From the IMG/VR virus record IMGVR_UViG_3300042516_003202: a stretch of 64,000 nucleotides of DNA. One strand, given 5' to 3'. Below the pieces are notes generated by a model. That model worked only from the letters and a program-made list of their open reading frames with translations. It was not told where the DNA came from and searched no databases. This stretch comes from a virus. This document shows, in pieces, positions 14,701 to 58,239 of this stretch; within the stretch, counting starts at the first letter, position 1; every line of letters starts with the position of its first letter. A program made the translations under genes and the position numbers.

Positions 14701-14903
14701 AAAACTGGATTTTCGGCATTCCACTCAGATTGATTAGCATATTTTAATATAATATGCCCACCACTAAGTATACCATTTGAGATAGAAATTCCCGAACCTA
14801 CCCCACCACCACCTAATTGGCCAGTAACTATTAAATTTTCAACCTCAAGATCTGTTATATCTTCAGGTGGTCTATCTGCGTAGTAAATTTTAATTTTTGT
14901 CAT
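5757..14903 (-). CDS. Giant fibre/structural protein (3048 aa): Mtd_N-like N-terminus, two collagen-like tracts, beta-helix-like region and internal repeats
   Basis: N-terminal EWNAENPVLLEGEVGLEVDTSRLKIGNGTTPWAGLPY; G-X-Q tracts; IYVSMNGNDDNTG...KTIKSA...GDTIKVFPGTYIE, a pectin-lyase-like start; C-terminus like conserved cyanomyovirus structural proteins (EWVGSGT...YTSTNQAGNFQIGDG...TPLIIAL). Confidence 0.8.
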   Translation of the reverse strand: MTKIKIYYADRPPEDITDLEVENLIVTGQLGGGGVGSGISISNGILSGGHIILKYANQSEWNAENPVLLEGEVGLEVDTSRLKIGNGTTPWAGLPYIGSTQGTQGLQGQISNFQGTQGPISNFQGTQGNQGLQGQIGFQGTQGSIGIQGNQGTQGSIGIQGLQGSQGSQGSQGTQGRQGIQGSISNFQGTQGNQGLSGLYVGQGAQGTVGFQGTQGTQGTQGNQGSQGSQGSQGLSNQGIQGTLSNFQGTQGPISNFQGTQGRQGIQGRQGVQGIPGFQGAQGLQGVQGPISNFQGTQGLQGESIQGTQGIQGRQGVQGNQGVQGSQGRQGIQGTQGVQATQGNQGLQGSLSNFQGTQGNQGTQGTQGVQGLSNQGVQGSQGRQGIQGSQGSQGTQGSQGSQGLQGSLSNFQGTQGSQGSQGSQGVQGLSNQGAQGSQGSQGSQGSQGRQGTQGFQGLQGSLSNFQGTQGNQGVQGTQGTQGTQGTQGTQGTQGTQGTQGNQGVQGTQGPISNFQGVRGSQGFQGSQGAQGRQGTQGFQGTQGNQGVQATQGTQGRQGTQGFQGTQGNQGVQATQGTQGTQGRQGVQGTQGNQGVQGNQGIQGLTGSRGGVSYQYDSLTSTPTSTTLNTGKFRFNANPLSEGLSTLWIDNEDIFGNDNSDWYDTWDDSSDTFKGYLILQTSTAISLVQRTIILRVLSVSSGINFATVSVELVSGLAPTNNEIIGFTFSRTGNQGVQGIQGTQGIQGTQGTQGTQGTQGTQGSQGRQGIQGTQGFQGLQGLQGTGVQGNQGTQGTQGVQGLSNQGVQGLQGDQGVQGVQGTQGNQGIQGTQGFQGSQGTQGVQGLSNQGVQGTQGFQGTQGSQGVQGVGHQGSQGFQGVQGDQGVQGTISNFQGTQGTQGNQGIQGNQGVQGTQGVQGPISNFQGTQGNQGVQGTQGTQGVQGTQGVQGPISNFQGTQGNQGVQGAQGNQGHQGLQGSLSNFQGTQGVQGIQGVQGPISNFQGTQGNQGVQATQGTQGTQGTQGTQGTQGTQGTQGSQGRQGIQGTQGFQGNQGLQGTQGVQATQGNQGLQGSLSNFQGTQGNQGTQGTQGTQGFQGLQGLQGLQGQISNFQGTQGLQGDQGVQGVQATQGTQATQGTQGTQGAQGTQGAQGRQGIQGPISNFQGTQGNQGVQATQGTQGSQGKQGIQGTQGFQGLQGLQGTGTQGVQGNQGIQGTQGFQGLQGTGVQGTQGTQGTQGTRGLQGSQGTQGTQGVQASQGVQGMQGIQGSSVSIELKDTEDNFVSYIGFSTEKSGSISTVFVSSEKLVFNPSSGSIGIGTSAITNTLTVVGTATATNYYGNGETLVGIVTQIVPGIGIDIFESQIPGKGKVKIQSYKPVGRTIYVSMNGNDDNTGLAENYPKKTIKSAASVAVFGDTIKVFPGTYIEDNPIILAKTVSVEGTELRNCVITPKNLNQDMFHVNNGCHITDASFIGPAMKNGAAVVALQPLLGVATDRFFDAARMIRFNLRYIAKESVGFLTSGFSGFAGSHREQDAARLIDKNLNYISAEAVGFLTSPSGYNFTLGISSYTNCKEDVVSIMQAISYDLKANSNRKSIGAGYSYFNSSGGLIHITGVGVSEATIAALDYAAGIATHVINNTTPPISYQGIGNSVSQVKDLSVIQVNGGCVGVGTTIKQLVGIVTNMIGAGTTSNAPAVRYGVNLESNDCADDVSDIWKCIIHDITRGGNSRSIDAGKAYYNNDWSLKSGILKNPEEVKQTIATLDYSFNVARAVINNCSWGGYPVGLGTTVVNAVYDANTGITTVTAINHGLSTKDPVKVQGLTYSCTPGSSGFPVGVVTASYDRLTGISTIETSTALKITSGDRVKLQNLVFECNSGGGPSTAIYPSGNYGYEFTVQDILDTKTFVVNVGKSTLDHIYQYGGEVSKLYTPIFGISTASYDRTTGIATVTAVGLGTTAGAHLYIEPGKKIKLENLVWECDSGGGPSTAYYPSGNLGYEFTIIATADNRYIDAANLIQKNRTEIIDKSLAAIAISHPDFYYPNDVQTTRFSRFKDSYRLIQQNRTEIVNSAWSATVAQYPGISGTQTKCKRDLGYFIDAVSTDIFTGGNSYSIAFVRQYFNNGAPISNGLVGEETESVYAFNQARNLMKQAITNQLTTKDLTLTADPVTGSNTSSSSCANVQSALDTLTSLITTVVSAGSLTSLNTIRNNPGIFVSGENKCRRDIGYIVDALVKDVKYGTNKHIREATRAYFNKNGAPISNGLVGEETQSVTAFNAVRDYAKKAITNQLNVKDLTISADPATGSNTSENSCADVKTNIDNLISILTTVISAGNLGSYPALYVSNKVKVNVGTSTLDHRYMYGGTLTSNYTTTTFPDGTFNYIFPVKSVVGPNTFEFVGGKTVLPHTYVSGGTVQKYTNFQNEFTQIKDLAMQVDPATGFNNVINSCADVTSAMKVCVGIVTSIIGIGSTAFSYVGFNTTYPGNRGKGFDSIVGVTSALYEETSGKTTIKAPGLLVKVGDLIEVRNLKFSCSSGGPVSTQLFPSGYYGYEFYVTKINSDDSFDVYTGISTIPHSYVSGGYVVNRSLEVTEAKYDNNTGIVTITAPGISVRTGDIVTLRDLEFACSSGAATTTLFPSGNNGYAFEVLSTTNERNTFTVNVGKTGIGHTYVVGGIVIPPYSKGVGPITQGPYVRNCTNFIGDSIGMKVDGFAAEPGDKEDIGVTGTMSVDSYTQYNQNGIGVSITNGAYTQLVSIFTICDDIGIFTKSGGQCDITNSNCSFGNYGLVSDGVGDYTSKSIYRYTGETVGTAEIETDTVTISGLGTQRPYDGQAIYFGELYYQVNAIKVTNGGNGYNPTNPPNVTIGFPEGPSGIRAEASANVDENGVITSIDVISNGSQYLNSPSVTITDFPGGSGVNATAEAVLYPLYYTITTATLPVNGTSTLVLTQNLNNTVGAGTTVYFSRLSLQIATSISLEWVGSGTNINTAKPALGGVTIQANEVDKRNGGQVVYTSTNQAGNFQIGDGVVINQLTGTITGRSFSQSLLNTVTPLIIALS
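11100..14610 (-). repeat. (G-X-Q)n collagen-like coding repeat, two tracts separated by a globular domain at ~12720-13090
   Basis: 9-bp periodicity with recurring interruptions GPISNFQ, GSLSNFQ, GLSNQ and GVQATQ. Confidence 0.95.
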
Positions 14904-32100: not shown

Positions 32101-32767
32101 ACAATTCCAGTTTATCTCTAACAAACTCTCTAATGTATTCGGTGAGTAGTTTGATGTACTTTGATTTGTCTCTTTCTTCATAAACGATACATTCTCCATT
32201 TTCGCAAGCCATGATAATTACAAGTTTTTTGACGGGAATACCAGTCAGTTCATAGAACATACAGGCATAAGCAGCACACTGAACAAAATAATGCTCAATC
32301 CACTCCCGTGGTTTTGGTTTTTTAGATGTTTTAAAGTCGATTATTGCTAATTCGCCATCAAACTCTGCAATACAATCTACTGTTCCCGCTACTCCAAGAA
32401 CTTTGCTGTACAGGGAACCTTCAAGAGTATAAATGTTATTTATACGATTTAAATCTGGTTTAGCAATTTTAAATAAAAATTGCGACAAAGGTTGAACTTC
32501 TGGAAGTTCTTCATTTTTAAGGTGATGTTCAGTAAGAGTGTGCATATCAGTTCCACGACTTGTTGATTGTCGTGTAATTCTATCTGCTTCTTCATCACCT
32601 ACTTTTTTACGCCATTTAACAAATACTTGGCGATTTTTATGACTAGTTACTGAAGTGATTGAAAATAGTTTAATAAGATCTTCACCATCAGGAACCTTAT
32701 AGTACCTAACTCCATCTATGGTCTCCCTTTCAAGTTTAGGGAGTTCAATATCAACATGTTTAAACAT
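32087..32767 (-). CDS. PD-(D/E)XK exonuclease (RecB-like)
   Basis: RGT.MH...E..L....VAGTVDCIAEFDG.LAIIDFKTS...YFVQ..AY. Confidence 0.88.
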   Translation of the reverse strand: MFKHVDIELPKLERETIDGVRYYKVPDGEDLIKLFSITSVTSHKNRQVFVKWRKKVGDEEADRITRQSTSRGTDMHTLTEHHLKNEELPEVQPLSQFLFKIAKPDLNRINNIYTLEGSLYSKVLGVAGTVDCIAEFDGELAIIDFKTSKKPKPREWIEHYFVQCAAYACMFYELTGIPVKKLVIIMACENGECIVYEERDKSKYIKLLTEYIREFVRDKLELYGTQ

Positions 32768-37002: not shown

Positions 37003-37010
37003 TATTTATT
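37003..37010 (-). promoter_or_regulatory. T4-type late promoter (AATAAATA)
   Basis: Matches NATAAATA about 26 nt upstream of glutaredoxin. Confidence 0.55.
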
Positions 37011-37812
37011 AATACCCATCTTCATGCCAACATTCATTGTATCCATTTTTTTGATCTTCATATGGATAAAAATTTAATTGTTTTTTGGGCCACATTAAAT
37101 CAATATCAGTTTTTGGAAATGATTTAAATATTTTTTTATTCAAATTTTGACTAATTTCATAAACTTCTTGCCATTTAGGAGCATAATCATAAAGATATTC
37201 GTTAGGATAAAGTAAAAACAGTTTAATCCTATCATCATAATTAGAACAATAATGTGCTCCAATATAAGTTTCAGTTCTTATAAAGTGTCCATAATATTTC
37301 CATAGATCATACTTACTTATTCTCACTTTGTCAACAAGTCCATTTATTTCAAGGGGAATATCAAACATTTTAATTAAGTGTTCGGTTTTACCCCAAAAAA
37401 CATGATCTCTTGGGTGGAATAAAAGGTGTGGATACATTCCAGGAACAAAAATTCGGTCTTCATTCCTGTGCTCTATAAAGAACTGATACATGTTCATCAT
37501 ACTTTGATGAGTGTATTTTTGATCAGTTCTCATTTTAATTGCGTATTCAGTTGTAACTTTTTGCAAACCAGCAAAAGAAGTCACAATTTGCAGATTTCTA
37601 TTATCTGTTCCTGGTGTAATCGGAAACTTATTTGAAATAACAAAGAATCTTGAATTCGGAATGTAGGTAACAACATCATCCTCCCAACAAGAAAGAATAA
37701 TGTTGTTTACGAATGGCAATTCAAAATAAGAATCTATGACTTCATTAGTAAATTCATCGTATCGCCCTTGCAGAACAATATCAATTTTTTCAAAGTTATT
37801 ATTCTGCATCAA
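37009..37812 (-). CDS. WavE-like lipopolysaccharide synthesis protein
   Basis: DIVLQG...IILSCWE...DNRNLQIVTSFAGL.KV.TEYAIKMRTDQ...FHPRDHVFWG. Confidence 0.75.
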   Translation of the reverse strand: MMQNNNFEKIDIVLQGRYDEFTNEVIDSYFELPFVNNIILSCWEDDVVTYIPNSRFFVISNKFPITPGTDNRNLQIVTSFAGLQKVTTEYAIKMRTDQKYTHQSMMNMYQFFIEHRNEDRIFVPGMYPHLLFHPRDHVFWGKTEHLIKMFDIPLEINGLVDKVRISKYDLWKYYGHFIRTETYIGAHYCSNYDDRIKLFLLYPNEYLYDYAPKWQEVYEISQNLNKKIFKSFPKTDIDLMWPKKQLNFYPYEDQKNGYNECWHEDGY

Positions 37813-39194
37813 TTCTTTTTTTCTACGATTTCAAGATTAAAACTTGCAATATTCTCCTTAGATCTTTCTAGATAATAATCATTCATTTCATAATTTGTCA
37901 TAAGATCTTGGAATAATTCTTTACATTCTTCAGACTTACCCCACCACCATCCAGAAAGTGCTTTTTGATAAATTAGACCGTATTTACCAGGATACTCAAC
38001 ATCAGTAATAAGATCTGGGTGATCAAATGTTGAATATTCTAAACCTTGACAAGCAAAAGTATATGCTTCCATCCACTGACTTCTTCTTTCAGCAAATCTA
38101 CTCAAAAGGAAATATGCCTCTGGTCTAGATGGTACAGAACAAAGTGCTTGTGTTAAAAGGGACTTAGAACTATTGTCTCTAGTTCCCTGTTTATCATAAC
38201 AATAAGATCCTCTAATAAGTGCCTCATAGGTAAGATTATCATCTTCAGATCTTTCTGCTGCTCTTAAGTAATAAGAAAGAGCTGGTGCAGTATGCCCACC
38301 GTTTTCGTACCAAACGCCAAGATTAAAATTATGAATTGCATTTTCAGTATCAAGAGAAAACTTAGTCAAAAGATCCTCTAATTCAGTTTTTTCTCTTTTT
38401 GGTTTTGGTTGTTCAGTTCCCACAAGTTCCTCAATCGTAATATTTTGTCCGTTCTTTTCCCACCAAGAAGAAACAAATTCCTGACTCTCTGCATGATGGT
38501 CTTTAGTACCACCTTCAATATTTGCAGTTTCAGTAAAAGTTGATTGGAACTTTACCTCTTCGACAAATAAATCTACAGCGTAAACTTTTCCAATATCATA
38601 AAAAAGAACAGTTTCCGGCATAGGATAAAAATCTGTTCCGTAAATTTCAAGATTAAACTTATCACCAAAACAGTAACGATCTATAATTTTTTTAGCATAA
38701 TTGCGCTTCATAATGTATGCGGTCACCGACCAATCATACATGGATCGTTCTTTAAGAACAATAGAATCGTGCGATGGTTTAATGCAACATAATTGTACAC
38801 AATCCCAATCTTCGGGAAGATTATTTACAAAATCATTCCAAGTAAAATTCCAATTAGAAACAGTTTCTAGACTAAGATCATCCTCACAAAAGAATGCATA
38901 TTCGTCATCAGTTTCCTCATACCATTTTTTAATCATTTTAATATGAGAAACTACACATCCAATAGTTCCCCCATCAAGAATATGCAATTGTGGTCCAGAA
39001 ACTTGATCGGATGATTCTGAATATCTTTTAGAAATTACTCCTTGTAAATCATAAACTCCATATTTTAAAAAACTTTTTCTCAGGTTTTCCCTCCTATCTT
39101 CACTTTCTTCCAAACTAATATAATAAACTTTTGGAAAATTATTCAATTTTTGTTTTTGGTCGGGATAACTTGCCATCATTAACGAACTATTCAT
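37809..39194 (-). CDS. GT25-family glycosyltransferase fused to a TPR-like helical domain
   Basis: VYYISL...DRR...IGC..SH..........FCEDD; C-terminal helical repeats (ALSYYLRAAE, PSRPEAYFLLSR). Confidence 0.75.
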   Translation of the reverse strand: MNSSLMMASYPDQKQKLNNFPKVYYISLEESEDRRENLRKSFLKYGVYDLQGVISKRYSESSDQVSGPQLHILDGGTIGCVVSHIKMIKKWYEETDDEYAFFCEDDLSLETVSNWNFTWNDFVNNLPEDWDCVQLCCIKPSHDSIVLKERSMYDWSVTAYIMKRNYAKKIIDRYCFGDKFNLEIYGTDFYPMPETVLFYDIGKVYAVDLFVEEVKFQSTFTETANIEGGTKDHHAESQEFVSSWWEKNGQNITIEELVGTEQPKPKREKTELEDLLTKFSLDTENAIHNFNLGVWYENGGHTAPALSYYLRAAERSEDDNLTYEALIRGSYCYDKQGTRDNSSKSLLTQALCSVPSRPEAYFLLSRFAERRSQWMEAYTFACQGLEYSTFDHPDLITDVEYPGKYGLIYQKALSGWWWGKSEECKELFQDLMTNYEMNDYYLERSKENIASFNLEIVEKKN

Positions 39195-39671: not shown

Positions 39672-40478
39672 TTAGTTATAAAATTGATTTAAAACTACAA
39701 TTTCACTGTTTATCATATCATCTATAGTTTCATATTCATTTCTTCTGTATCCAAGTGAATCTGCAGTCGTCCAAATCTGATTCCAATGATTTGCACGTAT
39801 AACAAATGGTTCCATATATTTGTCTGGTAAAAAATCAATATACTTTCTCATAAGCATGTCATGATTTTCACTTGTAGGATCTTCTCCAGATATTCTAATA
39901 AAATTTTTAGTGTACATTATTTCTGGCCCACTATCTAATATACCAGAATTTATCATTTCTAGAGTTTTTTCAAATGTCTTTATCATTTTATTAGTTTTAG
40001 ACACCATTAAATGATCTGCCGCACAATATTCAAAATAAACTTTTTGTCCAAAAAACGTTCCACCAGTTACCAGTTTTTCGGTATCCAATAAAAACTTATC
40101 TAGAATCAAGTGTAAATTCGAATATCTTTCATCCACTCTATGTTTTAAAACATAAGGAGTAGAAACATTGTTCAACCCATTTAACGTACTGACAGTTTGA
40201 AATTTGATTCCACAGTCATTATCTATTTCATGATTCTCATCAAAATCTTTGAATGATAAATTGTTTATTCCATTAGTTACACTTTGAGTAACTATTTGAA
40301 TACTTTTTTCTTCGCATATTTTTAAAAGTTTTTGATTTGTGCAAATATGCTCGTCGTAAGTTGATAGTACTATTTTAGAGAATAAAGATTGATAGTAATC
40401 AATAGAATCCAAAAAATCTATTTTAGTAAGATCATTAGTTGGACCTTGAACAACTAATGTAAAATCAGAATAGTTCAT
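39672..40478 (-). CDS. Second WavE-like protein
   Basis: TLVVQGP...IVLSTY...FQ..STLNGL..V.T.YVLK.RVDE...ADHL. Confidence 0.65.
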   Translation of the reverse strand: MNYSDFTLVVQGPTNDLTKIDFLDSIDYYQSLFSKIVLSTYDEHICTNQKLLKICEEKSIQIVTQSVTNGINNLSFKDFDENHEIDNDCGIKFQTVSTLNGLNNVSTPYVLKHRVDERYSNLHLILDKFLLDTEKLVTGGTFFGQKVYFEYCAADHLMVSKTNKMIKTFEKTLEMINSGILDSGPEIMYTKNFIRISGEDPTSENHDMLMRKYIDFLPDKYMEPFVIRANHWNQIWTTADSLGYRRNEYETIDDMINSEIVVLNQFYN

Positions 40479-42040
40479 GAATTATTCAATGCTAAAACTT
40501 CTATAGCGTTGTAGACATTTTTACACATTTCATAAACTCTCCACTTAGATTTTGGTTCAACATAATACTCAGTAATTTCACCGACCATTTCTTTATTTTG
40601 ATCAATATGTTTCTGTGCCAAAGCATATTCAACTTGCCATTGAACTTCTTGTTCAGTATGTCCTTGATTTCTCATATTTTCTTGAACCATTTTTATAAAA
40701 TCAGATTCCCAAGAAAATCCTTCAAAATGTTCTGTTCTTTTTTTATCAGGATGTGGAAGATGAATAGTGTGATAATCGTGTCTCAATCTAGTCTCTTTAA
40801 GACCCATCAATTTTAACCTTTCATAGAACTCTTCATCTTCAAATGCATAACACTTAGATAAATTTTCATTATACCCACCACATTTGAAAAAGTTTTCTTT
40901 ACTGATTAATAAAAGACCTATTAAGAATTTAAAATATGGACTATAGGAAACAGTGTAATCAACAATTTCTTCTGGTTTCATTTGGTGCATATCAATTACA
41001 TATCCACCGTAAGATTCGGAATAATATTCTGGAGCTTGATAATTGCTTTTTCCAGAAACAAAACTTTGATTATCAACTGGATAAGCATCAAAGAAATTAT
41101 AATATGGATTGATAATGTAATCACAATCTACTTTTAAAATATAATTTCCAGTGGCAATACTTGCAGCAAGATTTAAAGGTTGTGGTTGATTAAAGTATTG
41201 CTTATTTTTTACTTCAATAATTTTAATTCTATCGTCCAATTTAGAAAGATGAGAAATAGATTTATCAGAATCCCAATCAACAATTATAATTTCATGTATT
41301 TGATCAAATGCCAACCAAGAATTTAATGCAATTCTAAGAGCATTATATCTATTTTTACATGCACAAATTAAAGATATTCTTTGAGTTTCTTTAGTTCTAA
41401 CACAAATCCAATCACCTTCTTCATATGGGTGATTGGGAGCAGGTATAAACTGATCCAATCTAAAATTATTTCCGATTAAATAATTTTCCAAATCACTTTT
41501 CACTGCTTGTCCTTTATAGTATGGTTTTGGACATGCTTCAGTATGAATAACTTTAACAGAATCCAAATAAGTTCCCATACCTTTAAGAACTTTTAATTCT
41601 GCCCCTTGAGTATCCATCCAGATACAATCAACCTTTTCAACACCAATTGATTTCAAAAAACTATCTAATCTTTTTGATTGAACTTTTATCTTATTCCAGG
41701 TTCCAGAACTATAAGGAACATCAATAGGTTCAAACATTGAAGAACCACCGACATTTCCATCAACAACCCAAAAATCAACCTCACCTTCCTCGTCGGACAA
41801 TGCGAAATTATAAACTTCTATATTTTCATAGTGTTTAGATTTTTCAAAACACATATTATATTGTTCTGGGGTCGGTTCAAAAGCAATTATTCTTGAATTT
41901 GGAAAATGACTTAAAATTTCTATACTAGAATTTAAATCACGAGATCCTATCTCTAAGATAATTTCTGGATCTGTATTTCCATAAACCTCACGAATTTTAT
42001 TCGCAAATAAATCTAAAGTGTTAACACAAAAATCATACAT
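40475..42040 (-). CDS. FkbM-family methyltransferase fused to a GT2/GT7-like glycosyltransferase
   Basis: ILEIGS...AFEP...FALSD...SKRLD...DCIWMDTQGAELKVLKG; then ISLICACKNR...IIIVDW.S...LKVDCD...GGYNE...FEDEEF..RL. Confidence 0.8.
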   Translation of the reverse strand: MYDFCVNTLDLFANKIREVYGNTDPEIILEIGSRDLNSSIEILSHFPNSRIIAFEPTPEQYNMCFEKSKHYENIEVYNFALSDEEGEVDFWVVDGNVGGSSMFEPIDVPYSSGTWNKIKVQSKRLDSFLKSIGVEKVDCIWMDTQGAELKVLKGMGTYLDSVKVIHTEACPKPYYKGQAVKSDLENYLIGNNFRLDQFIPAPNHPYEEGDWICVRTKETQRISLICACKNRYNALRIALNSWLAFDQIHEIIIVDWDSDKSISHLSKLDDRIKIIEVKNKQYFNQPQPLNLAASIATGNYILKVDCDYIINPYYNFFDAYPVDNQSFVSGKSNYQAPEYYSESYGGYVIDMHQMKPEEIVDYTVSYSPYFKFLIGLLLISKENFFKCGGYNENLSKCYAFEDEEFYERLKLMGLKETRLRHDYHTIHLPHPDKKRTEHFEGFSWESDFIKMVQENMRNQGHTEQEVQWQVEYALAQKHIDQNKEMVGEITEYYVEPKSKWRVYEMCKNVYNAIEVLALNNS

Positions 42041-42055
42041 TTTTAAATATCTCCA

Positions 42056-43294
42056 TCAAAAATCTAAAACCCACTCGGGTAAAGAACCTCCACCAGTTTC
42101 ATAACCCCACTTATCAATAGCAACACGAAACTCTGGTCCAGGATTCTTATCAATTGCTTGGCGCATTGCCAAAGCACCCGCCAGAGTGCCGCCTGGATGC
42201 CCGTGTACGGCACCTCCGCAGTTAGCAAGGAAGTCCGTACCAAACTTCTCTGCCGTAGTGTTTACGATGCCAGGATGCATACCACAGCTCAATGCAGGAA
42301 GAACATTACGCCTGTGAAGAGTTTCCATAGTTTGGCGAAGTTCATTCTCATCATCACTCAAGTATCCACCCCACATTCCAGCATGAATTGTATCCACACC
42401 ACAAAGACCTGCAAGATCGCAGAGAACATCCCAATCAATACCAAATGCATGTCTCTTATCAGTCAGAATCTTATCACCACTCTTTTGATAGTGAATAAAC
42501 AAAGGTAAATCCATTTTTCTAACAGAGTTATAAACTCCAAGACCAGACCAGAAGTTAATATGAATCCCATTGCCCCCATTGTCTGCAACAAATTTAGCAC
42601 GATCAAGAATAGTATGGTGATCACCATTAATGCAGAAGGCATAAATCACATTCCTTCCACAATTATTAACAATATTAGAAATCAGTTCTACACGATCTTC
42701 AAGACGGCAGAATGAAGGGTTAGAAAGAATCTCATCTTCTTTGATAAAGTCTACACCACCATCAAGAAGTTCTTTCACCATTTCGGAAAGAGTTTGTGGA
42801 GAAATTCCAGTCTTCGGTTTTACAATCGCACCAGAAAGTGGTTTATCATAACGATTGACAAACTTACGAATACCGTCAATACCATTCTTTGGTCCAAGAA
42901 AAGATGCTTCAACATCTGCAGGAAACTCTAACTTCTGAAGTCTACATGCTTTAAAAACATCAATATCCAATTGTCCTCCCATAAGTTGACAAAGAAGATG
43001 TGAAATTCCATCACCTTCCCAATCAGTGTTTACTTTCGGAAAACCAATTTTAACTTTCCCAGAATAGACACCCGTAAGATTTTCTTCGGTATCGTAAATT
43101 ACACATGAAGAAAGCTCAAAAAGTTCATCGCTTTCCCAACGATTACGAACCTTTGGATTGCCTACACTCTGCCCAATCGCAAGGTTCCAGGCAGCATCTC
43201 TCAAATCTCCAACTTGTTGATGTGCTTCAATATAATACGTTGCAATCACACAACGATTTTTTTCTTGTTCGGTTAATTCTCTAAAAAACTTCAT
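42056..43294 (-). CDS. RuBisCO-like protein (form IV RLP), 412 aa
   Basis: AIGQSVG; FLGPKNGIDGIR; PLSGAIVKPKTG; GGVDFIKEDE; DTIHAG; ALSCGMHPG; GGAVHGHPGG..AGA.AMRQA. Start set at ATG 43294 (GAGG Shine-Dalgarno, 1 nt after the cupin stop). Confidence 0.92.
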   Translation of the reverse strand: MKFFRELTEQEKNRCVIATYYIEAHQQVGDLRDAAWNLAIGQSVGNPKVRNRWESDELFELSSCVIYDTEENLTGVYSGKVKIGFPKVNTDWEGDGISHLLCQLMGGQLDIDVFKACRLQKLEFPADVEASFLGPKNGIDGIRKFVNRYDKPLSGAIVKPKTGISPQTLSEMVKELLDGGVDFIKEDEILSNPSFCRLEDRVELISNIVNNCGRNVIYAFCINGDHHTILDRAKFVADNGGNGIHINFWSGLGVYNSVRKMDLPLFIHYQKSGDKILTDKRHAFGIDWDVLCDLAGLCGVDTIHAGMWGGYLSDDENELRQTMETLHRRNVLPALSCGMHPGIVNTTAEKFGTDFLANCGGAVHGHPGGTLAGALAMRQAIDKNPGPEFRVAIDKWGYETGGGSLPEWVLDF

Positions 43295-43295
43295 T

Positions 43296-43616
43296 TTAAA
43301 CCTCAAATTTATCTGATGGAATGGAGGGAACTTTTACACATACTACTGTACAGTCTTCAAGAAAGATAGGATCTGCAACTTCTCCCTTATCAAATACAAA
43401 TACATCTCCACTATTTAACTCCTTTTCTTGAATCATCATTTTTCCAGAAAGAAGAACATTATATTCTACACTATCTTTATGATAATGTGCTGCCCACACT
43501 TCACCCTTAGGATGAAACAAAACACCAACTTCAAAATCTTTCGTTCTTAAGATAGATGGATCAAAATCACCAATAATCCACCCTCTATGATAGTCCTTTA
43601 AATTACTTAAATTCAT
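43296..43616 (-). CDS. Cupin-fold protein (RmlC-like)
   Basis: GWIIGDF.P......EVG...H.KGE.W..HYHK...EYN..LSG.M......GDVF; HxH...E metal motif. Confidence 0.8.
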   Translation of the reverse strand: MNLSNLKDYHRGWIIGDFDPSILRTKDFEVGVLFHPKGEVWAAHYHKDSVEYNVLLSGKMMIQEKELNSGDVFVFDKGEVADPIFLEDCTVVCVKVPSIPSDKFEV

Positions 43617-44326
43617 AATTTTGAAATAAAAGTTTCTAAATCTTCTGGAACGCCAACTGGATTATGTTGCCAATTCGGAATATGATGAATGCCAACTTTG
43701 AGACCTTGTTTAATCATATGATTATAAGTTGGACCAACATAAAATTCTCCATTAGGAGCCCTATCATTGCATTTTATCATATTTTCTGCACTTTGTACAA
43801 AATACTTTCCCTTTCTCCAATAATGAATTCCATTTAAAGAAATATCACTTATAACTTCTTTTTCTTTTATTTCCTGAACAAAACCTTTTTTATCAATTCT
43901 AGCATAACTGTTTTTTGGAGTATTAGTACTATACGTTACAACTAAACCATCATACTTATAGTATCTTGCAGAAGTGAGAAATAAATTAGAATCCCACCAC
44001 ATAATTTGATCACAATTTGCAACAACCAATTCATCTTCATTATTAATATAATCACGAAACAGTAAACAACTCGATGCAGGTCCTTCCGTTGTTTCCTCTA
44101 CACTAATAATCTTAGACGTTGGAAAAATAGAATGAAGCAGTGTACATACCTGATCATAATAACTATCCTTTCTTATCACAAAGTGATAAGTTCCATTCAA
44201 TCCCAAAGATTCTGTTGCCATTTTAATCATTGGAACCCCATTAATTTCAATTAATGGTTTTGGAATTTTATAAGTGTCTCTGGGAAATCTAGTTCCTTCC
44301 CCAGCCATTGGAATTACAATGTTCAT
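43613..44326 (-). CDS. Sugar-phosphate nucleotidyltransferase
   Basis: IVIPMAGEGTRF...PKPLIEING.PMI...T.GPA...VANCDQ...EIKEK.VIS...GI.YW...EFYV.P.YN. Confidence 0.85.
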   Translation of the reverse strand: MNIVIPMAGEGTRFPRDTYKIPKPLIEINGVPMIKMATESLGLNGTYHFVIRKDSYYDQVCTLLHSIFPTSKIISVEETTEGPASSCLLFRDYINNEDELVVANCDQIMWWDSNLFLTSARYYKYDGLVVTYSTNTPKNSYARIDKKGFVQEIKEKEVISDISLNGIHYWRKGKYFVQSAENMIKCNDRAPNGEFYVGPTYNHMIKQGLKVGIHHIPNWQHNPVGVPEDLETFISKL

Positions 44327-44329
44327 GAA

Positions 44330-45229
44330 TTAGAGAAACAATTGAGCCAATTTTTTTGTAGTTAAATTCTTTTTAGAAAAGTCAAAAAGATATTCACAAA
44401 TTTGATCATATTGAGGGTGTATCTTACCTTTCATCGCATATTTATTTGTCTCTAAGATGAGAGATTTTGGTAAAGAAGTCATAATATACGGAGGACAATC
44501 TTTCAAATCAGTAAAATATGGAATACTTCTATTCGCAAGAATTTCATAATGCCTCAAACAATCCCATCCCATTTTTTTACAGGTTCTGCCATAATAAGAT
44601 TTAGCATAATCTTCATAATATGATTTTTCATCTTCAAAAATGTATGTATCAGCATATCCAGGAACAACATGCCCAAATATTTTTTCTTTTGTTGGAATAT
44701 GATCTATAAATTGACTCTCCGGTATTGCAAAGGAAATTGGATTTGCAATGCTAATATCATACAATTCCCTTTTCCATACTATCCCATACTCATGTAAACC
44801 AGATTGTCCAGCAAAATCATCAGGTTCATCTGCACCATCAATGAAATGAACTTTATTTTTTGGATAATGTTCTTTTACATGCTCTAAGTAGTCTAAGCAT
44901 TGTCTCTGAGGAAACCAAGGATGTGTATATACGCATCCATAAATTACCATATCATAAAATTTTGATTTTATCTTATCAATAATCACTTCTGGAGATTCAA
45001 CATTTGGTTGATGATCTAATTTACAATATACAGTAAATCCTTTAGTGTTATTTCCATCAAATTTTCTAACAAAATCAGAACTAGTAGACTGTTCAGAATC
45101 AAGGTAATATTTCATCATGTAATGTGGGGGATACGTTTCATAAACGTCAACGCCATTGTCAATTAATCCATGATAAACCATATCCTTCATATAATCTTGA
45201 ATATGATTCGTTACAAACAATACTTTCAT
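44330..45229 (-). CDS. Putative GT-B glycosyltransferase (CgeB-like)
   Basis: FIDGADE...KRE.....PISFAIP...KSYYG.T.KK.GWDCLRHYEILAN..IPYF. Confidence 0.6.
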   Translation of the reverse strand: MKVLFVTNHIQDYMKDMVYHGLIDNGVDVYETYPPHYMMKYYLDSEQSTSSDFVRKFDGNNTKGFTVYCKLDHQPNVESPEVIIDKIKSKFYDMVIYGCVYTHPWFPQRQCLDYLEHVKEHYPKNKVHFIDGADEPDDFAGQSGLHEYGIVWKRELYDISIANPISFAIPESQFIDHIPTKEKIFGHVVPGYADTYIFEDEKSYYEDYAKSYYGRTCKKMGWDCLRHYEILANRSIPYFTDLKDCPPYIMTSLPKSLILETNKYAMKGKIHPQYDQICEYLFDFSKKNLTTKKLAQLFL

Positions 45230-46050
45230 AATTTTTTAAATGAATTAGAGATAAACAAATTTTTTATAGATTCTTCATATTCAGTATCATATTTAATAAA
45301 AATATCATTATTATATGGAACATTTTTTTCAGATTTACATAACCACCGTGTAGTATCATCTTTTGATTTAACCACAAATTGAACTCTAGGAAATTTTTTT
45401 ACTTTATTAAAATATCCTATTCTATTAAAATAGTAAACATAAGATCTTTCTATATTTAAATAAAACGGATCGTCTCTCATTTCCCAAAAATCTTGTATTA
45501 AATATTCAGTGTTGACATAATTATCAATTATACCAAGAACAATATCAATATCGGAAGATGGAAATATATGATGCCTATCACTTATTCCACCATATTCTTC
45601 ACCATAAGGAACCCAAAAAAAATCATTTGGTAATATTGGATGTTCTTGGACATAAAAATGATCACTTCTTGTAAGAATTATTCTGTCATAATTTAATAGT
45701 ACTTCCTTTTTATTCTTTAGCAAATAATGCCTAAGTGCTAAGGTTATTGCACTGGATCCTATAGTTCCATAAAGACCAGAAAAACCAGTTTTAGATCCTA
45801 ATTCAAAAGATTGTTTCCAACTTCCTTCACCAAAATTTTCTACGTAATAATCAGCCCATTCTTCATATTCTGGAACTTCCCAAATATATTTCGCCTTTGA
45901 ATACAATGAATGGGATTTATTTTCATTAAAACCAAAACATAATGCAAGATCGGACTGATATGGTTCTAACAAATTTCTATACATGCTATTCCATGCTTTT
46001 TCACCACCCCTAGGATTTCCAATTACTACAGTAAGTGTTTTTTCCATCAA
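45226..46050 (-). CDS. Putative glycosyltransferase-like protein of unknown family
   Basis: YDRIILTRSDH...EEYGGISDRH; operon context. Confidence 0.45.
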   Translation of the reverse strand: MMEKTLTVVIGNPRGGEKAWNSMYRNLLEPYQSDLALCFGFNENKSHSLYSKAKYIWEVPEYEEWADYYVENFGEGSWKQSFELGSKTGFSGLYGTIGSSAITLALRHYLLKNKKEVLLNYDRIILTRSDHFYVQEHPILPNDFFWVPYGEEYGGISDRHHIFPSSDIDIVLGIIDNYVNTEYLIQDFWEMRDDPFYLNIERSYVYYFNRIGYFNKVKKFPRVQFVVKSKDDTTRWLCKSEKNVPYNNDIFIKYDTEYEESIKNLFISNSFKKL

Positions 46051-46781
46051 GTATTACCAAATACAACTCTTTTCCAATCTATACCATTATTAATTTGAAC
46101 TTGAAAATCAAACCTTTGTGGAATTATTCCATAAAAATCTAAATGATTTTTCAATATAGACTCTGGATGATATTTGCTATCTCCAATTTTTTGCAAGTTA
46201 TGATAATTCCAAAAAACATTAGAATACAAGTCCATTCCGTGTGATGTTCCAACTGCAAATTGATCATTGATTCCATTGCACCAATCATCACCAACAGGAA
46301 CACAAACATCAGAATTTAAATCTTCAAGATTTAAATTTTTACTTTTAAAATTACTATCAAACCTCATCCTAACAACACGATCAAAAGTCATTCTATGAAG
46401 TTCTTCATATTTTCTTTTAAGATCATTAGACCTATAAATTGAATAATGCATACTTATAGGTCCCACATCAGTTCTTAAATATTCAGAAAACTCTAATGAT
46501 GAAAAAATATCGTGAAAATAATTCTGTTTTGAATCATAATCTTCTACTAAAAGACTTTCATATGTATAATTTTGCTCAACAAAACTTACGTCAGTATCTA
46601 CAGTTTTATCCTCTTCTTTATTTTTAACATCATAAATTGTTTTTACAAACTCTTCTCTGTCATTTATTTTCCAAGTATGAATAAAAACTTTAATGTCTTC
46701 ATTAGGAATAATATTTTTTAAACTTTCCAATCCAATATGTGGATATCTGATTCCTCCAGAAATACAAACCGCTACTTTCAT
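46047..46781 (-). CDS. Putative glycosyltransferase-like protein
   Basis: MKVAVCISG..R...KVFIHTW...SMHYSI...FDRVVRMRFD...NDQFA.G...HPESIL; operon context. Confidence 0.5.
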   Translation of the reverse strand: MKVAVCISGGIRYPHIGLESLKNIIPNEDIKVFIHTWKINDREEFVKTIYDVKNKEEDKTVDTDVSFVEQNYTYESLLVEDYDSKQNYFHDIFSSLEFSEYLRTDVGPISMHYSIYRSNDLKRKYEELHRMTFDRVVRMRFDSNFKSKNLNLEDLNSDVCVPVGDDWCNGINDQFAVGTSHGMDLYSNVFWNYHNLQKIGDSKYHPESILKNHLDFYGIIPQRFDFQVQINNGIDWKRVVFGNT

Positions 46782-47758
46782 TCAAAAATATACTCCTTAA
46801 CAAATTTTTGAGGAACTTTAAGTAAGTAAGCTGCATTATCCTGAAAACCAAAAGTAATCAAATAGTCATCTCCAAATTCACACATTCCAACAGCAAACTC
46901 AACATTTGCTTCTAAGAAAGAAAATCTCTTAGATACAGTTACAATTTCCCAATTTTTGTCCCAAACAATGAAACGATGCCTGTAATGCCCATCTTTTCTT
47001 CCAGCAGGACTTTGATATAAGAAAGTTTCATGATTTAGAGACATTCTGCATTCGCCAAATGGTAATACTTGAGAACCACCACGAAGATCTACACATCCTA
47101 AATCTTTCCAAGAAGTTTGACAAACAGTTTCTGTTTTACCAGTATTAATATCATACTTAACAATTTCTGTGCCATTTGTCCATTTTACAAAATGGTATGG
47201 CATATCAAGAATTGGCATCCAGTTTTTATTACAATATTCATCATCATTTCCCGGAGCAGGAATTCTATAACGATTTATTTCACGAACTCCATCTTCATAA
47301 ACAATTACTTCTGATAGTTCCATTCTACCAGTTCCAATTGTGTCAAGATCTCTTCTTACACCACAAATATAAAGCTTTCCATCCCATCTAACAATTCTTG
47401 CATCTTCAAGACCAACAAATTCCCACTGTGGTTGATATGTATCAAACGCAGCAGTATCTACTCTATGATACCACTTTAAGTTCATAGTTTCATCCATCTC
47501 ACCCATTACATTATTTGTTCTTAGGTGAAGATCATTTTCAGGATGAATATAAACAAGAGGTCCCCATTGATGTTCAAATTTTTTCTTTTCTGAATGATAA
47601 AGAGTGTAGTTTATATTTCTAAGATTGACTAAAATTTTACCATTATCATTATAAATTGAAGGATTCGTAATTGCAGGTCCTTGCAAATATGAAGAAGGAA
47701 AAATCAAAGGGTGAATGCTTCCACCATTTTCCAAAGCAAGTTTTACAAAATTACTCAT
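46778..47758 (-). CDS. Five-bladed beta-propeller glycosidase/phosphorylase-like protein (GH130/GH43 clan-like)
   Basis: TNPSI...GLEDARIV.W.GKLY...KNWMP...LRGGSQ...Y.HRF....VEFAVG. Confidence 0.7.
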   Translation of the reverse strand: MSNFVKLALENGGSIHPLIFPSSYLQGPAITNPSIYNDNGKILVNLRNINYTLYHSEKKKFEHQWGPLVYIHPENDLHLRTNNVMGEMDETMNLKWYHRVDTAAFDTYQPQWEFVGLEDARIVRWDGKLYICGVRRDLDTIGTGRMELSEVIVYEDGVREINRYRIPAPGNDDEYCNKNWMPILDMPYHFVKWTNGTEIVKYDINTGKTETVCQTSWKDLGCVDLRGGSQVLPFGECRMSLNHETFLYQSPAGRKDGHYRHRFIVWDKNWEIVTVSKRFSFLEANVEFAVGMCEFGDDYLITFGFQDNAAYLLKVPQKFVKEYIFE

Positions 47759-47779: not shown

Positions 47780-47808
47780 ATTATACTATACTATCTATTA
47801 TAGTTCAA
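47780..47808 (-). promoter_or_regulatory. Sigma70-type promoter for the glycan/RLP operon
   Basis: TTGAAC-N17-TATAAT, about 22 nt upstream of the ATG at 47758. Confidence 0.7.
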
Positions 47809-54993: not shown

Positions 54994-57900
54994 TTAGAAA
55001 TTAAAATCATACTGATAAACTATATCGTTATTAGTACCAACGACATACAACCTATCAAGATTTTGAGAGAAAGTTAATCCTTCTCCTGTTATTTCATTAG
55101 AAACGATTGATATATTTTTATTTGCAGATGTTCCTGTTGATATGTCAAATGGTGTTGATAAATTAAATTGATATACTCTATCATTTGTTTGATCTATAGT
55201 ATACATTTTTGTTCCGGTTTTATTAATGAATAAATCTCTAGCGTCTGGAGAAGTTGCATTAATATTTAAAGATTTAGATTCATAAGAAAAAGACCCTAAA
55301 TTAAATGGAGTTGATAAACTATATTGATATATCGTATCATTAGCACCAATAATATAAACCTTAGATCCATCATATGACATAGTATGACCATATGAAGTTG
55401 CTTCTTGACTTATAGATCTATAACCAACATTCATCGTATCAAGAATCCATGGTGTTGTCATATCCATTTGATAAATTGTATCATTTCCAGCCCCGATAAC
55501 ATATATTTTAGTTCCATCTGCACTAATTAACAAAGATCTAGGACTTGTTTCGATATGTGTAATACTACCATTATGATTATGAGATTGTTGGGTTAGAGTT
55601 CCACTTCCTAAATCCCAAGGAACAGATAAAGTATATTCATAAATTCTATCGCCACTATCTCCAATTATATACATCCTGGTTCCATCAGGTTTAAATGCAA
55701 TTCCTTCCGGTATAGCATCAGGAGAGGTAATACTTGCGGATGTTGAGGATAAAGCACATATATTCCAAGCATTTGCAGTCAAAGTAAACTGTGCTATGTA
55801 ATCGGTAAGAGAAATGGCATAAAGAGGGCAAAAGAATCGAGTCCCATCAGTTTTAAATGTAATATCACGAAAAGTCCAAGAAGTACCCCAAATATTTGAT
55901 ATTTGAAAATATCCCATGTTCATACTGTTCATATTCCAAGCATCTTCAATTTCATATTGATATATTCTGTCATTACCATCACCAATAACATACACACGAG
56001 TACCGTTATCATTAAAATGCATCCCAGTTGGAGATACCTCCTGTATTCCAATATAAGTGGCATTTTGCAATGTATCTTGAGTAGCAGTTGAAAGACTCCA
56101 TGGAGTACTTAATGTATATTGATAAATTTTATCATTCGTAGATCCCAAAACATATAATTTAGTTCCATCAGGTTTAAATGATATTGAATGAGGCTCAGTA
56201 TCAGGAGAAGTAAGCACAGTTTGATAAACTGCGGTAGAAATATTCCAAGCAACGCCTAAATTATACTGCTCAATATAATCTGTTGAACCTGAATTATATT
56301 GGACAGTATACATTTTAGTCCCATCAGTACTAAAAGCAACATCTCTAGGTTCCCAACTAGAACTAAGTCCCAAATTCACAGGAACATAACCGACGTTCAT
56401 TGTACTAGTCGTATATGCAGTGCTTACAGTATATTGATATATTCTATCAGTACTATCCCCCAAAAGAAAAATTTTAGTCCCATCAGAATTAAAACTTATT
56501 GCTACAAAATTTCCATCCTGCAAAATAGTTGGTCTAACAGTTTGAGCCACTAGTGTTGCACTACTAACTAACCAAGCAGTAGACATACTATATTGATAAA
56601 CAACATCATTTGTTGTTCCGATTATATAAAAAGATGTTCCATCAGCATTAAATGTTAATCCTGTTAAAGTTTCCGTTTGCACTGATATATTGGTTGAACT
56701 AGTTGCAGTGCTTACATCCCATGCAGTACTCAAAGTATATTCGTACACTCTATTGTTCGTATCACCAAGAATGTACATTTTAGTTCCATTAGTTCTAAAA
56801 TATAAATCATTAGGTGCAGTATCTTGACCACTTACAAGAAAACTTTTATTTTCGTAAGATGCAGTGCTAATATCCCATGCGGTACTTAAACTGTATTGAT
56901 ATACTCTATCATTCGTATCACCTATCATGTAAACTTTTGTTCCGTCATCCTTAAATGCAATACCTCTAGGATTAGTATCTTGTGTGGTGACAGAAAAACT
57001 CTTAGATGCATAAGATGCTGTAGATACATCCCAAGCAGTACTTAAAGTATATTGATAAATTGTATCATTGTTTACACCAATGATATAAACTGCTGTCCCA
57101 TCAGATTTAAACGCCATTCCAGTTGGAATTGATTCTTGTGACGATAAAGATATAGATGTGGGAAGTATATTTCTAGCAGTGCTAATATCCCAAGCAGTTG
57201 TTAATTCATATTCAAAGACTCTATCGCTTAATCCATCACATATATACACTTCAGTTCCATCAGGTTTAAAAGTAATTCCTGTAGGATATGAAGTTTGACT
57301 AGTAAGTAAAAAAGATTTACTAGCATAAGTTGCAGTAGAAACATCATATGGAGTAGACAAGGTATATTGATATATTGTATCGTTCCAGTTCCCTACAATA
57401 TACAACTTGGTTCCGGAATCTCCTATGTACATTCCAGTCGGTTGCTGTTCTCCAACTGCTCCAGCACCAGAGAAAACAGGAGATGGAGTTAATAAGTATC
57501 TAGCAGTGCTAATATCCCAAGGCGTAGTGCAAGTAAACTGATACATTCTATTATTAATTCCACCACACAGATAAAATCTAGTTCCATCTGGTTTAAACTC
57601 CATTCCCAGGGGAAAAGAGTCTATTGAACCAACATAATAAGATTTACTAGCATAAGATGCAGTAGAAATATCATATGCTGTAGTTAAAGTATATTGATAT
57701 ATCGTATCATTAGTATTTCCAATTACATAAAGTTTCGTCCCCGAATCCCCAAAGCACATTCCGTTAGGATCATTTTCTTGAGTAGCAACTAAAAAAGTTT
57801 TTACCAAAGGAGGAATTTTAGCAGTTGCAAGATCCCAAGGCGTAGTCATAACATATTGAAGGATCCTATCATTTGTATTTCCAGTAATATAAAGATTTAC

Positions 57901-58239
57901 ACCATCATTACTGATTGATAAACCTTGCCCATTTCCCTCTAGTGAACTAAAGCTAATTGATTTGGATGCATAAGAAGCAGTATTAACTTCAAATGGTGTT
58001 GTTAATGTATATTGAAAAACTTGTTGATTTGAAATAACATACATTTTAGTTCCATCAGTACTTATAGCAACTGAATATGGAACACTATTTTGAGTGCTGA
58101 CAGAATAAGATTTATTAGTATAACCATAACGAACAATATCACCAAGTATTACTTCATTACGAACATTATCATCTGGAAAGAAAATACCTTTTAATAATCC
58201 TTGGGGTGTAGTTGGTAAACTTCCACTGATTACTTTCAT
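54994..58239 (-). CDS. Beta-propeller repeat protein (1081 aa, 20 repeats of about 50 aa)
   Basis: Counted 20 copies of PxGxxFxxDGTKxYVxGxxNDxIYQYTLSTxWDxSTA. Confidence 0.8.
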   Translation of the reverse strand: MKVISGSLPTTPQGLLKGIFFPDDNVRNEVILGDIVRYGYTNKSYSVSTQNSVPYSVAISTDGTKMYVISNQQVFQYTLTTPFEVNTASYASKSISFSSLEGNGQGLSISNDGVNLYITGNTNDRILQYVMTTPWDLATAKIPPLVKTFLVATQENDPNGMCFGDSGTKLYVIGNTNDTIYQYTLTTAYDISTASYASKSYYVGSIDSFPLGMEFKPDGTRFYLCGGINNRMYQFTCTTPWDISTARYLLTPSPVFSGAGAVGEQQPTGMYIGDSGTKLYIVGNWNDTIYQYTLSTPYDVSTATYASKSFLLTSQTSYPTGITFKPDGTEVYICDGLSDRVFEYELTTAWDISTARNILPTSISLSSQESIPTGMAFKSDGTAVYIIGVNNDTIYQYTLSTAWDVSTASYASKSFSVTTQDTNPRGIAFKDDGTKVYMIGDTNDRVYQYSLSTAWDISTASYENKSFLVSGQDTAPNDLYFRTNGTKMYILGDTNNRVYEYTLSTAWDVSTATSSTNISVQTETLTGLTFNADGTSFYIIGTTNDVVYQYSMSTAWLVSSATLVAQTVRPTILQDGNFVAISFNSDGTKIFLLGDSTDRIYQYTVSTAYTTSTMNVGYVPVNLGLSSSWEPRDVAFSTDGTKMYTVQYNSGSTDYIEQYNLGVAWNISTAVYQTVLTSPDTEPHSISFKPDGTKLYVLGSTNDKIYQYTLSTPWSLSTATQDTLQNATYIGIQEVSPTGMHFNDNGTRVYVIGDGNDRIYQYEIEDAWNMNSMNMGYFQISNIWGTSWTFRDITFKTDGTRFFCPLYAISLTDYIAQFTLTANAWNICALSSTSASITSPDAIPEGIAFKPDGTRMYIIGDSGDRIYEYTLSVPWDLGSGTLTQQSHNHNGSITHIETSPRSLLISADGTKIYVIGAGNDTIYQMDMTTPWILDTMNVGYRSISQEATSYGHTMSYDGSKVYIIGANDTIYQYSLSTPFNLGSFSYESKSLNINATSPDARDLFINKTGTKMYTIDQTNDRVYQFNLSTPFDISTGTSANKNISIVSNEITGEGLTFSQNLDRLYVVGTNNDIVYQYDFNF

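What the first reader, a model, noticed from the sequence alone, without database searches (positions are those of the whole stretch)
42056..43294. Phage-encoded RuBisCO-like protein (form IV) with a non-carboxylase active site
Seen (spinach RbcL numbering, aligned by eye): K175/K177 (KPKTG), K201-x-D203-E204 (KEDE), H327, S379 and G403/G404 are retained. E60 appears replaced (AIGQS), H294/R295 become Q/K (HYQKS), and loop-6 K334 becomes Y (GMWGGYL). Known: characterised RLPs enolise or rearrange phosphorylated sugar-like substrates (MtnW enolase, MTRu-1P isomerase, apionate-pathway transcarboxylase/hydrolase) and do not fix CO2. An intact RLP embedded in a cyanophage operon is unusual. Inference: a new RLP reaction in biosynthesis rather than methionine salvage or catabolism.
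Basis: partly seen in the sequence, partly recalled or inferred. Interest (0 to 1): 0.92.

Follow-up and report, generated by a model that had tools for sequence, protein, structure and literature searches.

The report
Phage RuBisCO relative replacing a phosphomutase
A cyanobacterial virus carries a RuBisCO relative that lacks the residues for fixing CO2 and sits in a sugar-activation gene cassette exactly where other phages put a phosphomannomutase, so it probably supplies the sugar-1-phosphate for an unusual surface-sugar donor, a biosynthetic job not yet shown for this enzyme family.

Summary
Confirmed: an intact 412-aa RuBisCO-like gene (minus strand; dN/dS about 0.05-0.07) in a T4-like cyanomyophage. 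It is not a chimera: 228 IMG/VR stretches encode relatives, many with the same flanks. It keeps K175/K177/K201/D203/E204/H327/S379/G403/G404 and lacks E60, N123, H294 and K334. It forms its own clade, apart from MtnW, OiaX and the MTRu-1P isomerase. Phage RLPs are published (Jaffe 2019, 'IV-like', function unclear), and this scan found the cassette before on other DNA. New here is a gene-slot swap. The usual order is nucleotidyltransferase-cupin-RLP-phosphodiesterase (103 loci). In 15 loci a phosphomannomutase fills the RLP slot. Another lineage has a PfkB kinase plus phosphatase (often RpiB) instead. None of these co-occurs with the RLP. A tree that keeps RLP-type cassettes together is rejected (AU p=0.009), implying at least two swaps. 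The RLP is also found fused to the nucleotidyltransferase and to the phosphodiesterase. Best reading: it supplies the sugar-1-phosphate (about 0.65), most likely by moving the carbonyl of a ketose 5-phosphate (1,3-isomerisation, as the R. rubrum RLP does; about 0.45). The nucleotidyltransferase is of the kind linked to ketofuranose decoration of glycans. Substrate and product are untested.

The parts
42056..43294 (-). RuBisCO-like protein, 412 aa, phage 'IV-like' type; carbamate/Mg core kept, carboxylation residues lost
43296..43616 (-). Small metal-binding cupin (106 aa, H44 and E51 invariant), candidate sugar-phosphate isomerase or epimerase
   Evidence: Cupin_2 E 1e-4, phrog_24762; in 70/92 RLP loci
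43613..44326 (-). Sugar-phosphate nucleotidyltransferase, 237 aa, BcbE/BcbG-like family
   Evidence: PF00483 E 2.9e-9; profile hits PDB 4EVW at E 1.9e-35; in 87/92 RLP loci; fused to the RLP in P0123
39191..39670 (-). Minimal GDPD/PLC-like phosphodiesterase, 159 aa (H6, R7, E35, D37, H49 invariant)
   Evidence: in 74/92 RLP loci; fused to the RLP N-terminus in P0169
46047..46781 (-). DUF7796-like protein, candidate glycosyltransferase for the donor
   Evidence: PF25072 E 9e-6, below cut-off; family in 49/92 loci; role inferred
37009..37812 (-). WavE-family LPS synthesis protein
   Evidence: PF07507 E 1.6e-12
39672..40478 (-). Second, weaker WavE-like protein
   Evidence: PF07507 E 0.001, below cut-off
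40475..42040 (-). FkbM methyltransferase + GT2/GT7 fusion (variable island gene inserted between RLP and phosphodiesterase)
37809..39194 (-). GT25 glycosyltransferase with TPR tail
44330..47758 (-). Upstream island genes (299, 274, 244 and 326 aa; the 244-aa gene is the DUF7796-like one listed above), co-oriented and overlapping
   Evidence: mostly no family hit
47780..47808 (-). Sigma70-like site (10/12) directly upstream of the island
   Evidence: such sites occur at chance frequency in this region (59 vs 62.6), so only the position is suggestive

Best explanation
The RLP is a Mg2+/carbamate-dependent ketose-phosphate isomerase that supplies the 1-phosphate substrate of the neighbouring nucleotidyltransferase, doing the job of a phosphomutase. 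Shown: the enolisation core (K175, K177, K201, D203, E204) and P1 phosphate glycines are kept, the carboxylation residues are lost, and the gene is interchangeable with a phosphomannomutase or with a kinase plus phosphatase. Inferred: it takes an abundant pentulose 5-phosphate (xylulose-5-P or ribulose-5-P), keeps the phosphate in the P1 site and moves the carbonyl along the chain by two 1,2-proton transfers. On renumbering, the product is a pentulose 1-phosphate; this is the reverse of the R. rubrum MTRu-1P to MTXu-5P reaction with OH in place of SMe. The polar distal site (Q294, K295, H327, S379) suits a hydroxylated end; Y334, C380 and H245 are candidate proton shuttles. More speculative: the cupin sets stereochemistry or the aldose/ketose state, the nucleotidyltransferase makes an NDP-sugar, the phosphodiesterase may convert an NDP-1-ketose into a C2-activated 1,2-cyclic phosphate, and the DUF7796/WavE proteins transfer the sugar onto a surface glycan (host envelope or virion). 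The role as 1-phosphate supplier is about 0.65 likely; this specific chemistry about 0.45.
For: Order NTase-cupin-RLP-PDE in 103 loci and NTase-cupin-PMM-PDE in 15. The replacement is a eukaryote-type phosphomannomutase by sequence (PF03332 E 1e-19; PMM structures E 7e-32). Bellamy-type phages use HAD phosphatase + PfkB kinase + NTase(-RpiB) + cupin. Co-occurrence with RLP: PMM 0/19, PfkB 0/101, KdsC-like HAD 0/98, RpiB 0/92; 84/91 RLP loci and the window have none of the mutase, kinase or phosphatase markers. In an NTase+cupin+PDE tree the PMM clade (SH-aLRT 99) nests among RLP-type cassettes, and RLP-type monophyly is rejected (AU p=0.009). RLP-NTase and PDE-RLP fusions exist. The deepest clade member lies beside a GPI-type cupin, transketolase and FGGY kinase in a sugar-use operon. 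Precedent for a 1-P to 5-P isomerisation by an RLP: PMC4958253. NTase homologues occur in BcbEFG-like clusters; BcbE and BcbG are needed for fructose side chains (PMC13552107).
Against: No activity has been measured. The swaps are only two or three independent events, the counts are redundant, and the tree was a fast search without a firm root. A swapped gene need not give the same product: PMMs normally act on aldohexose phosphates, so PMM-type cassettes may make another sugar. A beta-PGM-like HAD-NTase fusion co-occurs with the RLP in 12/19 loci, so exclusion is not universal for HAD enzymes. The active site differs from the R. rubrum-type isomerase at most positions and the two do not group. 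K/R295 with H327 could equally bind a second phosphate. Homology to BcbG itself was shown only through BcbEFG-like E. coli clusters, not the Pasteurella proteins.
Confidence: 0.45

Rival explanations
1. The RLP acts on a ketose bisphosphate (RuBP or FBP), enolises it and reprotonates it as a C3 epimerase or 2-to-3 ketose isomerase (e.g. RuBP to XuBP); the product is activated by the NTase and a host phosphatase removes the spare phosphate.
For: Both anion sites stay polar (K/R295, H327, S379); closest folds are form III carboxylases; misprotonation to XuBP is a known RuBisCO side reaction (own knowledge); kinase-type cassettes also pass through a bisphosphate.
Against: H298 is usually D and K334 is Y, which weakens bisphosphate binding; the cassette occurs in Pelagibacter, Patescibacteria and Woesearchaeota contigs, where RuBP supply is doubtful; it does not explain replacement by a mutase.
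Confidence: 0.2
2. The RLP performs a Mg-dependent alpha-ketol carbon shift that turns a ketose phosphate into a branched-chain sugar phosphate (hamamelose or apiose type), whose hydroxymethyl phosphate is then nucleotidylated.
For: Characterised RLPs handle branched sugars (apionate, hamamelose; PMC10176493); the deepest member P0137 sits with FGGY kinase, split transketolase and GH127, genes recalling apiose catabolism (recall, untested).
Against: A phosphomannomutase or kinase/phosphatase cannot replace a carbon-skeleton rearrangement; the clade is separate from OiaX and DUF1537-linked RLPs.
Confidence: 0.12
3. The RLP eliminates phosphate or water from the enediolate of RuBP/Ru5P to give a 1-deoxy-2,3-diulose 5-phosphate, as E60 and K334 mutants of RuBisCO and RibB do, and this is activated by the NTase.
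For: E60 and K334 are both lost; RuBisCO mutants at these sites beta-eliminate phosphate (own knowledge); an NTase-RibB fusion exists in phage S-SKS1.
Against: RibB co-occurs with the RLP in 3 of 4 loci and belongs to a separate module, so it is not a slot swap; no reductase is conserved to process the dicarbonyl.
Confidence: 0.08
4. It is an auxiliary carbon-metabolism gene that binds or diverts RuBP to shift host flux from the Calvin cycle to nucleotide synthesis.
For: Cyanophage host; cyanophages redirect this flux by other genes (own knowledge).
Against: Tied to the NTase in 87/92 loci and fused to it; present in non-phototrophs inside glycan clusters.
Confidence: 0.05
5. It is a known RLP (MtnW, OiaX, MTRu-1P isomerase), a carboxylase, or a bacterial gene in a chimeric contig.
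For: General similarity to all these models.
Against: All scores far below curated cut-offs (best 205 vs 497 bits); separate clade, support 0.999; same flanks in independent viral assemblies; GC3 0.27 lies within the range of phage genes.
Confidence: 0.03

Closest known systems
'Form IV-like' RuBisCO-related proteins of phages and Beckwithbacteria (Jaffe et al. 2019, PMC6389311)
   Same: Divergent RLP clade in IMG/VR myoviruses and a few CPR bacteria; key residues diverged; function unclear.
   Different: In the passages read, the paper gives no gene neighbourhood or reaction.
Rhodospirillum rubrum RLP Rru_A1998, MTRu-1P to MTXu-5P isomerase (IV-DeepYkr; PMC4958253)
   Same: Works-like model: converts a ketose 1-phosphate into a ketose 5-phosphate; also encoded near a cupin.
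   Different: Different clade; a homologue next to mtnA has E60, N123, H204, P295, I327, R334 against G, G, E, K, H, Y here; it serves methionine salvage, not glycan synthesis.
MtnW DK-MTP-1P enolase (TIGR03332)
   Same: G at position 60; K175, K201, D203, E204.
   Different: MtnW has K123, P295, L327; score 126 vs cut-off 514; no methionine-salvage gene family recurs among the neighbours.
OiaX and DUF1537-kinase-linked RLPs (apionate and acid-sugar catabolism)
   Same: Q61; G123 in OiaX; sugar-phosphate substrates.
   Different: They keep H294, R295, K334 and lose K177; score 155 vs 700; separate clade.
BcbEFG / KfoE fructosylation modules and ManA-ManB-ManC-type NDP-sugar pathways
   Same: Related nucleotidyltransferase; same logic of isomerase + 1-phosphate supplier + NTase.
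   Different: No RLP or phosphodiesterase in BcbEFG-like clusters; the donor chemistry is undefined there too.

Membership tests
RuBisCO superfamily | N-terminal domain plus TIM barrel fold | tested here: met
   PF00016 above cut-off; TM 0.85 to form III
RuBisCO superfamily | K201-x-D203-E204 carbamate/Mg motif | tested here: met
   K185-E-D187-E188
Bona fide carboxylases (forms I-III) | E60, T65, N123, H294, R295, H298, K334 present | tested here: not met
   G, N, G, Q, K, D, Y; TIGR03326 205 vs 497 bits
Bona fide carboxylases (forms I-III) | RuBP-dependent CO2 fixation | not testable with these tools
   needs an assay
MtnW enolase | K123 base, hydrophobic distal site (P295, L327), TIGR03332 cut-off | tested here: not met
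OiaX / DUF1537-linked RLP | H294/R295/K334 kept, model cut-off, kinase or dehydrogenase neighbours | tested here: not met
   OiaT itself was not available as a reference
MTRu-1P isomerase (IV-DeepYkr) | Same clade, KDDH motif, mtnA neighbour | tested here: not met
   this lowers 'is a', not 'works like'
Phage form IV-like clade (Jaffe 2019) | Divergent RLP in myovirus contigs and CPR bacteria | tested here: met
Phage form IV-like clade (Jaffe 2019) | Groups with the published sequences | not testable with these tools
   no supplement held

The most novel reading that the evidence does not exclude
This is the first biosynthetic RuBisCO-like enzyme: a 'mutase by carbonyl migration' that converts a central pentulose 5-phosphate into a pentulose 1-phosphate. 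With a nucleotidyltransferase and a cyclising phosphodiesterase it would define the so far unidentified route to activated ketofuranose donors for surface glycans, spread by phages among cyanophages, SAR11, CPR bacteria and DPANN archaea.
Probability: 0.3. Interest if true: 0.85.

Novelty: new variant of a known kind. Interest (0 to 1): 0.66.

Why it matters
The characterised RLPs found in the papers read work in salvage or catabolism. An anabolic RLP that can be exchanged for a phosphomannomutase would widen the chemistry of the RuBisCO fold and give a function to a widespread phage clade that has been an open question since 2019. It also corrects a likely misannotation: JGI names these proteins 'ribulose-bisphosphate carboxylase large chain', which invites claims of phage carbon fixation. 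The four-gene cassette is small and soluble, so it is directly testable. It may bear on how ketofuranose donors are made, which is unresolved for xylulose in E. coli O95/O97 (PMC7685785).

Tried and rejected
No whole genome is held for the window. RibB as a slot replacement: considered after S-SKS1, rejected because RibB co-occurs with the RLP. RpiB as the replacement: weakened, since PfkB+HAD cassettes also occur without RpiB. Complex prediction of RLP with cupin was unreachable four times; no verdict. No RLP in cultured phages, PHROGs or BFVD structures. Plasmid hits were other RLP classes. Linking the cassette to a glycan of known structure failed: no RLP-bearing organism with a solved polysaccharide was found, and the E. 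coli O95/O97 clusters could not be retrieved. Promoter scan is at chance level. Four RLP papers (Tabita 2007, Imker 2008, Erb 2018, Carter 2018) were not held. Literature searches found no description of the neighbourhood.

Full report
Observation. The ORF at 42056-43294 lies on the minus strand and encodes 412 residues. It matches PF00016 at E 2.6e-43 but stays far below the cut-off of every NCBIfam RuBisCO or RLP model. The AlphaFold model is confident (pLDDT 91.9) and matches form III RuBisCO best (TM 0.85). The gene is under strong purifying selection (dN about 0.05, dS about 0.9 against close phage relatives). From established RuBisCO mechanism, this site can be carbamylated, bind Mg and enolise a ketose phosphate, but lacks the residues needed for carboxylation.

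Setting. The flanks are T4-like (ssDNA-binding protein, helicase loader, PhoH, thymidylate synthase), and the best cultured match of gp32 is Synechococcus phage S-SRM01 at 79%. The RLP sits in a co-oriented, overlapping 12-gene island of glycosyltransferase-like, WavE and methyltransferase genes. 228 IMG/VR stretches encode relatives, and independent assemblies such as L005, L009, L011, L018 and L023 share both the upstream island genes and the downstream core genes. A chimera is therefore excluded in practice, although read coverage could not be checked. Relatives also occur in the complete Pelagibacter Uisw_094 chromosome (67%) and in contigs assigned to Pelagibacteraceae, Patescibacteria, Planctomycetales and Woesearchaeota; some of those small contigs may be misbinned phage. 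No GenBank phage record carries the gene.

Family. In a tree of 150 RuBisCO-superfamily proteins the query falls in a clade of 48 with support 0.999, apart from MtnW, OiaX, DUF1537-linked RLPs and an mtnA-linked isomerase homologue. Jaffe et al. 2019 reported about 80 phage 'IV-like' sequences with unclear function (PMC6389311). Earlier notes of this scan describe the same cassette on other genomes; I re-derived it here.

Conserved partners. Over 92 loci (redundant), a nucleotidyltransferase is present in 87, a small GDPD-like phosphodiesterase in 74, a cupin in 70 and a DUF7796-like protein in 49. Deep clade members keep the RLP-cupin-NTase trio. P0123 fuses RLP and NTase; P0169 fuses the phosphodiesterase to the RLP N-terminus. 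The NTase profile matches PDB 4EVW far better than RmlA or GlmU and matches the BcbG-position gene of BcbEFG-like E. coli clusters. [quoted passage not shown]

The slot swap. Searching by the cupin instead of the RLP showed what stands in when the RLP is absent. Of 105 dereplicated cupin loci, 71 have the RLP, 7 a phosphomannomutase, 24 a PfkB kinase (with a KdsC-like phosphatase in 23 and RpiB fused to the NTase in 20), and 3 none of these. The order NTase-cupin-RLP-PDE occurs in 103 loci and NTase-cupin-PMM-PDE in 15. The PMM assignment is strong by sequence (PF03332 E 1e-19; solved PMMs E 7e-32). PMM, PfkB, the KdsC-like HAD and RpiB never share a locus with the RLP (0/19, 0/101, 0/98, 0/92), and the window has none of them. 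In a concatenated NTase+cupin+PDE tree the PMM clade nests among RLP-type cassettes, the kinase clade lies elsewhere, and forcing RLP-type cassettes together is rejected (AU p=0.009). That means at least two independent swaps; the direction depends on the root, and the search was a fast one. Limits: a beta-PGM-like HAD-NTase fusion does co-occur with the RLP (12/19), and RibB is a separate module (3/4 co-occur). A word search of the scan's notes found no mention of this swap.

Mechanism. A mutase and a kinase-phosphatase pair have one thing in common: they put a phosphate on C1 for a nucleotidyltransferase. An RLP can reach the same result without moving phosphorus, because shifting the carbonyl of a pentulose from one end to the other renumbers a 5-phosphate as a 1-phosphate. 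The R. rubrum RLP does this between MTRu-1P and MTXu-5P (PMC4958253). I therefore infer a ketose-phosphate 1,3-isomerase running from xylulose- or ribulose-5-phosphate to the 1-phosphate, with the polar distal site holding a hydroxyl end. The deepest clade member, beside a GPI-type cupin, transketolase and FGGY kinase in a sugar-use operon, fits an isomerase of sugar phosphates. The later steps are more speculative: NDP-sugar formation, possible cyclisation by the phosphodiesterase to a C2-activated ketose, and transfer by DUF7796/WavE proteins to a surface glycan. Whether the target is the host envelope, the virion or DNA is not resolved. Rivals are a bisphosphate epimerase (0.2), a branched-sugar rearrangement (0.12), phosphate elimination (0.08) and a Calvin-cycle diversion role (0.05).

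Verdict. The gene is real, intact and selected. Its clade and phage occurrence are already published, so it is a new variant of a known kind. The gene-slot evidence turns 'function unclear' into a specific, cheaply testable reaction that would be the first biosynthetic role for an RLP. Interest 0.66; nothing biochemical has been shown.

Noticed in passing
L178 5593-9287 (GCA_023488455.1): Deepest member of the clade (P0137) sits in a bacterial sugar-use operon with FGGY kinase, split transketolase, GPI-type cupin, aldolase, ABC transporter and GH127: a catabolic relative that may reveal the substrate.
   Followed up: partly
L233 3307-5474 and L238, L240, L247, L252, L255, L259, L262, L268, L270: A phage lineage with a eukaryote-type phosphomannomutase in an NTase-cupin-PMM-PDE cassette, often next to a 430-500 aa gene that by eye resembles TROVE/Ro60 (not tested).
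   Followed up: partly
L187 6001-7428 (Synechococcus phage S-SKS1): Nucleotidyltransferase fused to DHBP synthase (RibB), followed by a 320-aa gene, a small HAD and a transaldolase; the same module occurs in L076, L257 and L446. Possibly a separate pathway to an activated C4 unit.
   Followed up: partly
L163 5838-6995 (phage Bellamy gp206): Annotated 'phosphatase' but is a nucleotidyltransferase-RpiB fusion (PF02502 E 3.9e-32).
   Followed up: yes
L191 3559-5717 (Ralstonia phage RSL1): The same NTase family lies among genes annotated as HMC glucosyltransferases and a thymidylate synthase homologue, so it may also feed DNA hypermodification.
   Followed up: no
P0191, P0190: Other RLP fusions: a TIR domain fused to an RLP (583 aa), and an RLP with an unassigned 160-aa C-terminal extension.
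   Followed up: no
L170 3598-7171: Fusion of ribose-1,5-bisphosphate isomerase (IF-2B family) and a form III-like RuBisCO next to an AMP-phosphorylase-like gene.
   Followed up: no
L082 758-10322 (Pelagibacter Uisw_094): RLP cassette plus a second HAD-NTase fusion in a glycan island that appears to abut the rRNA operon.
   Followed up: partly
window 5757-14903 and 54994-58239: Very long minus-strand ORFs (3048 aa; 1081 aa with repeated propeller-like units), probably tail or receptor-binding proteins; TATAAATA late-promoter motifs at 32437 and 51606.
   Followed up: no
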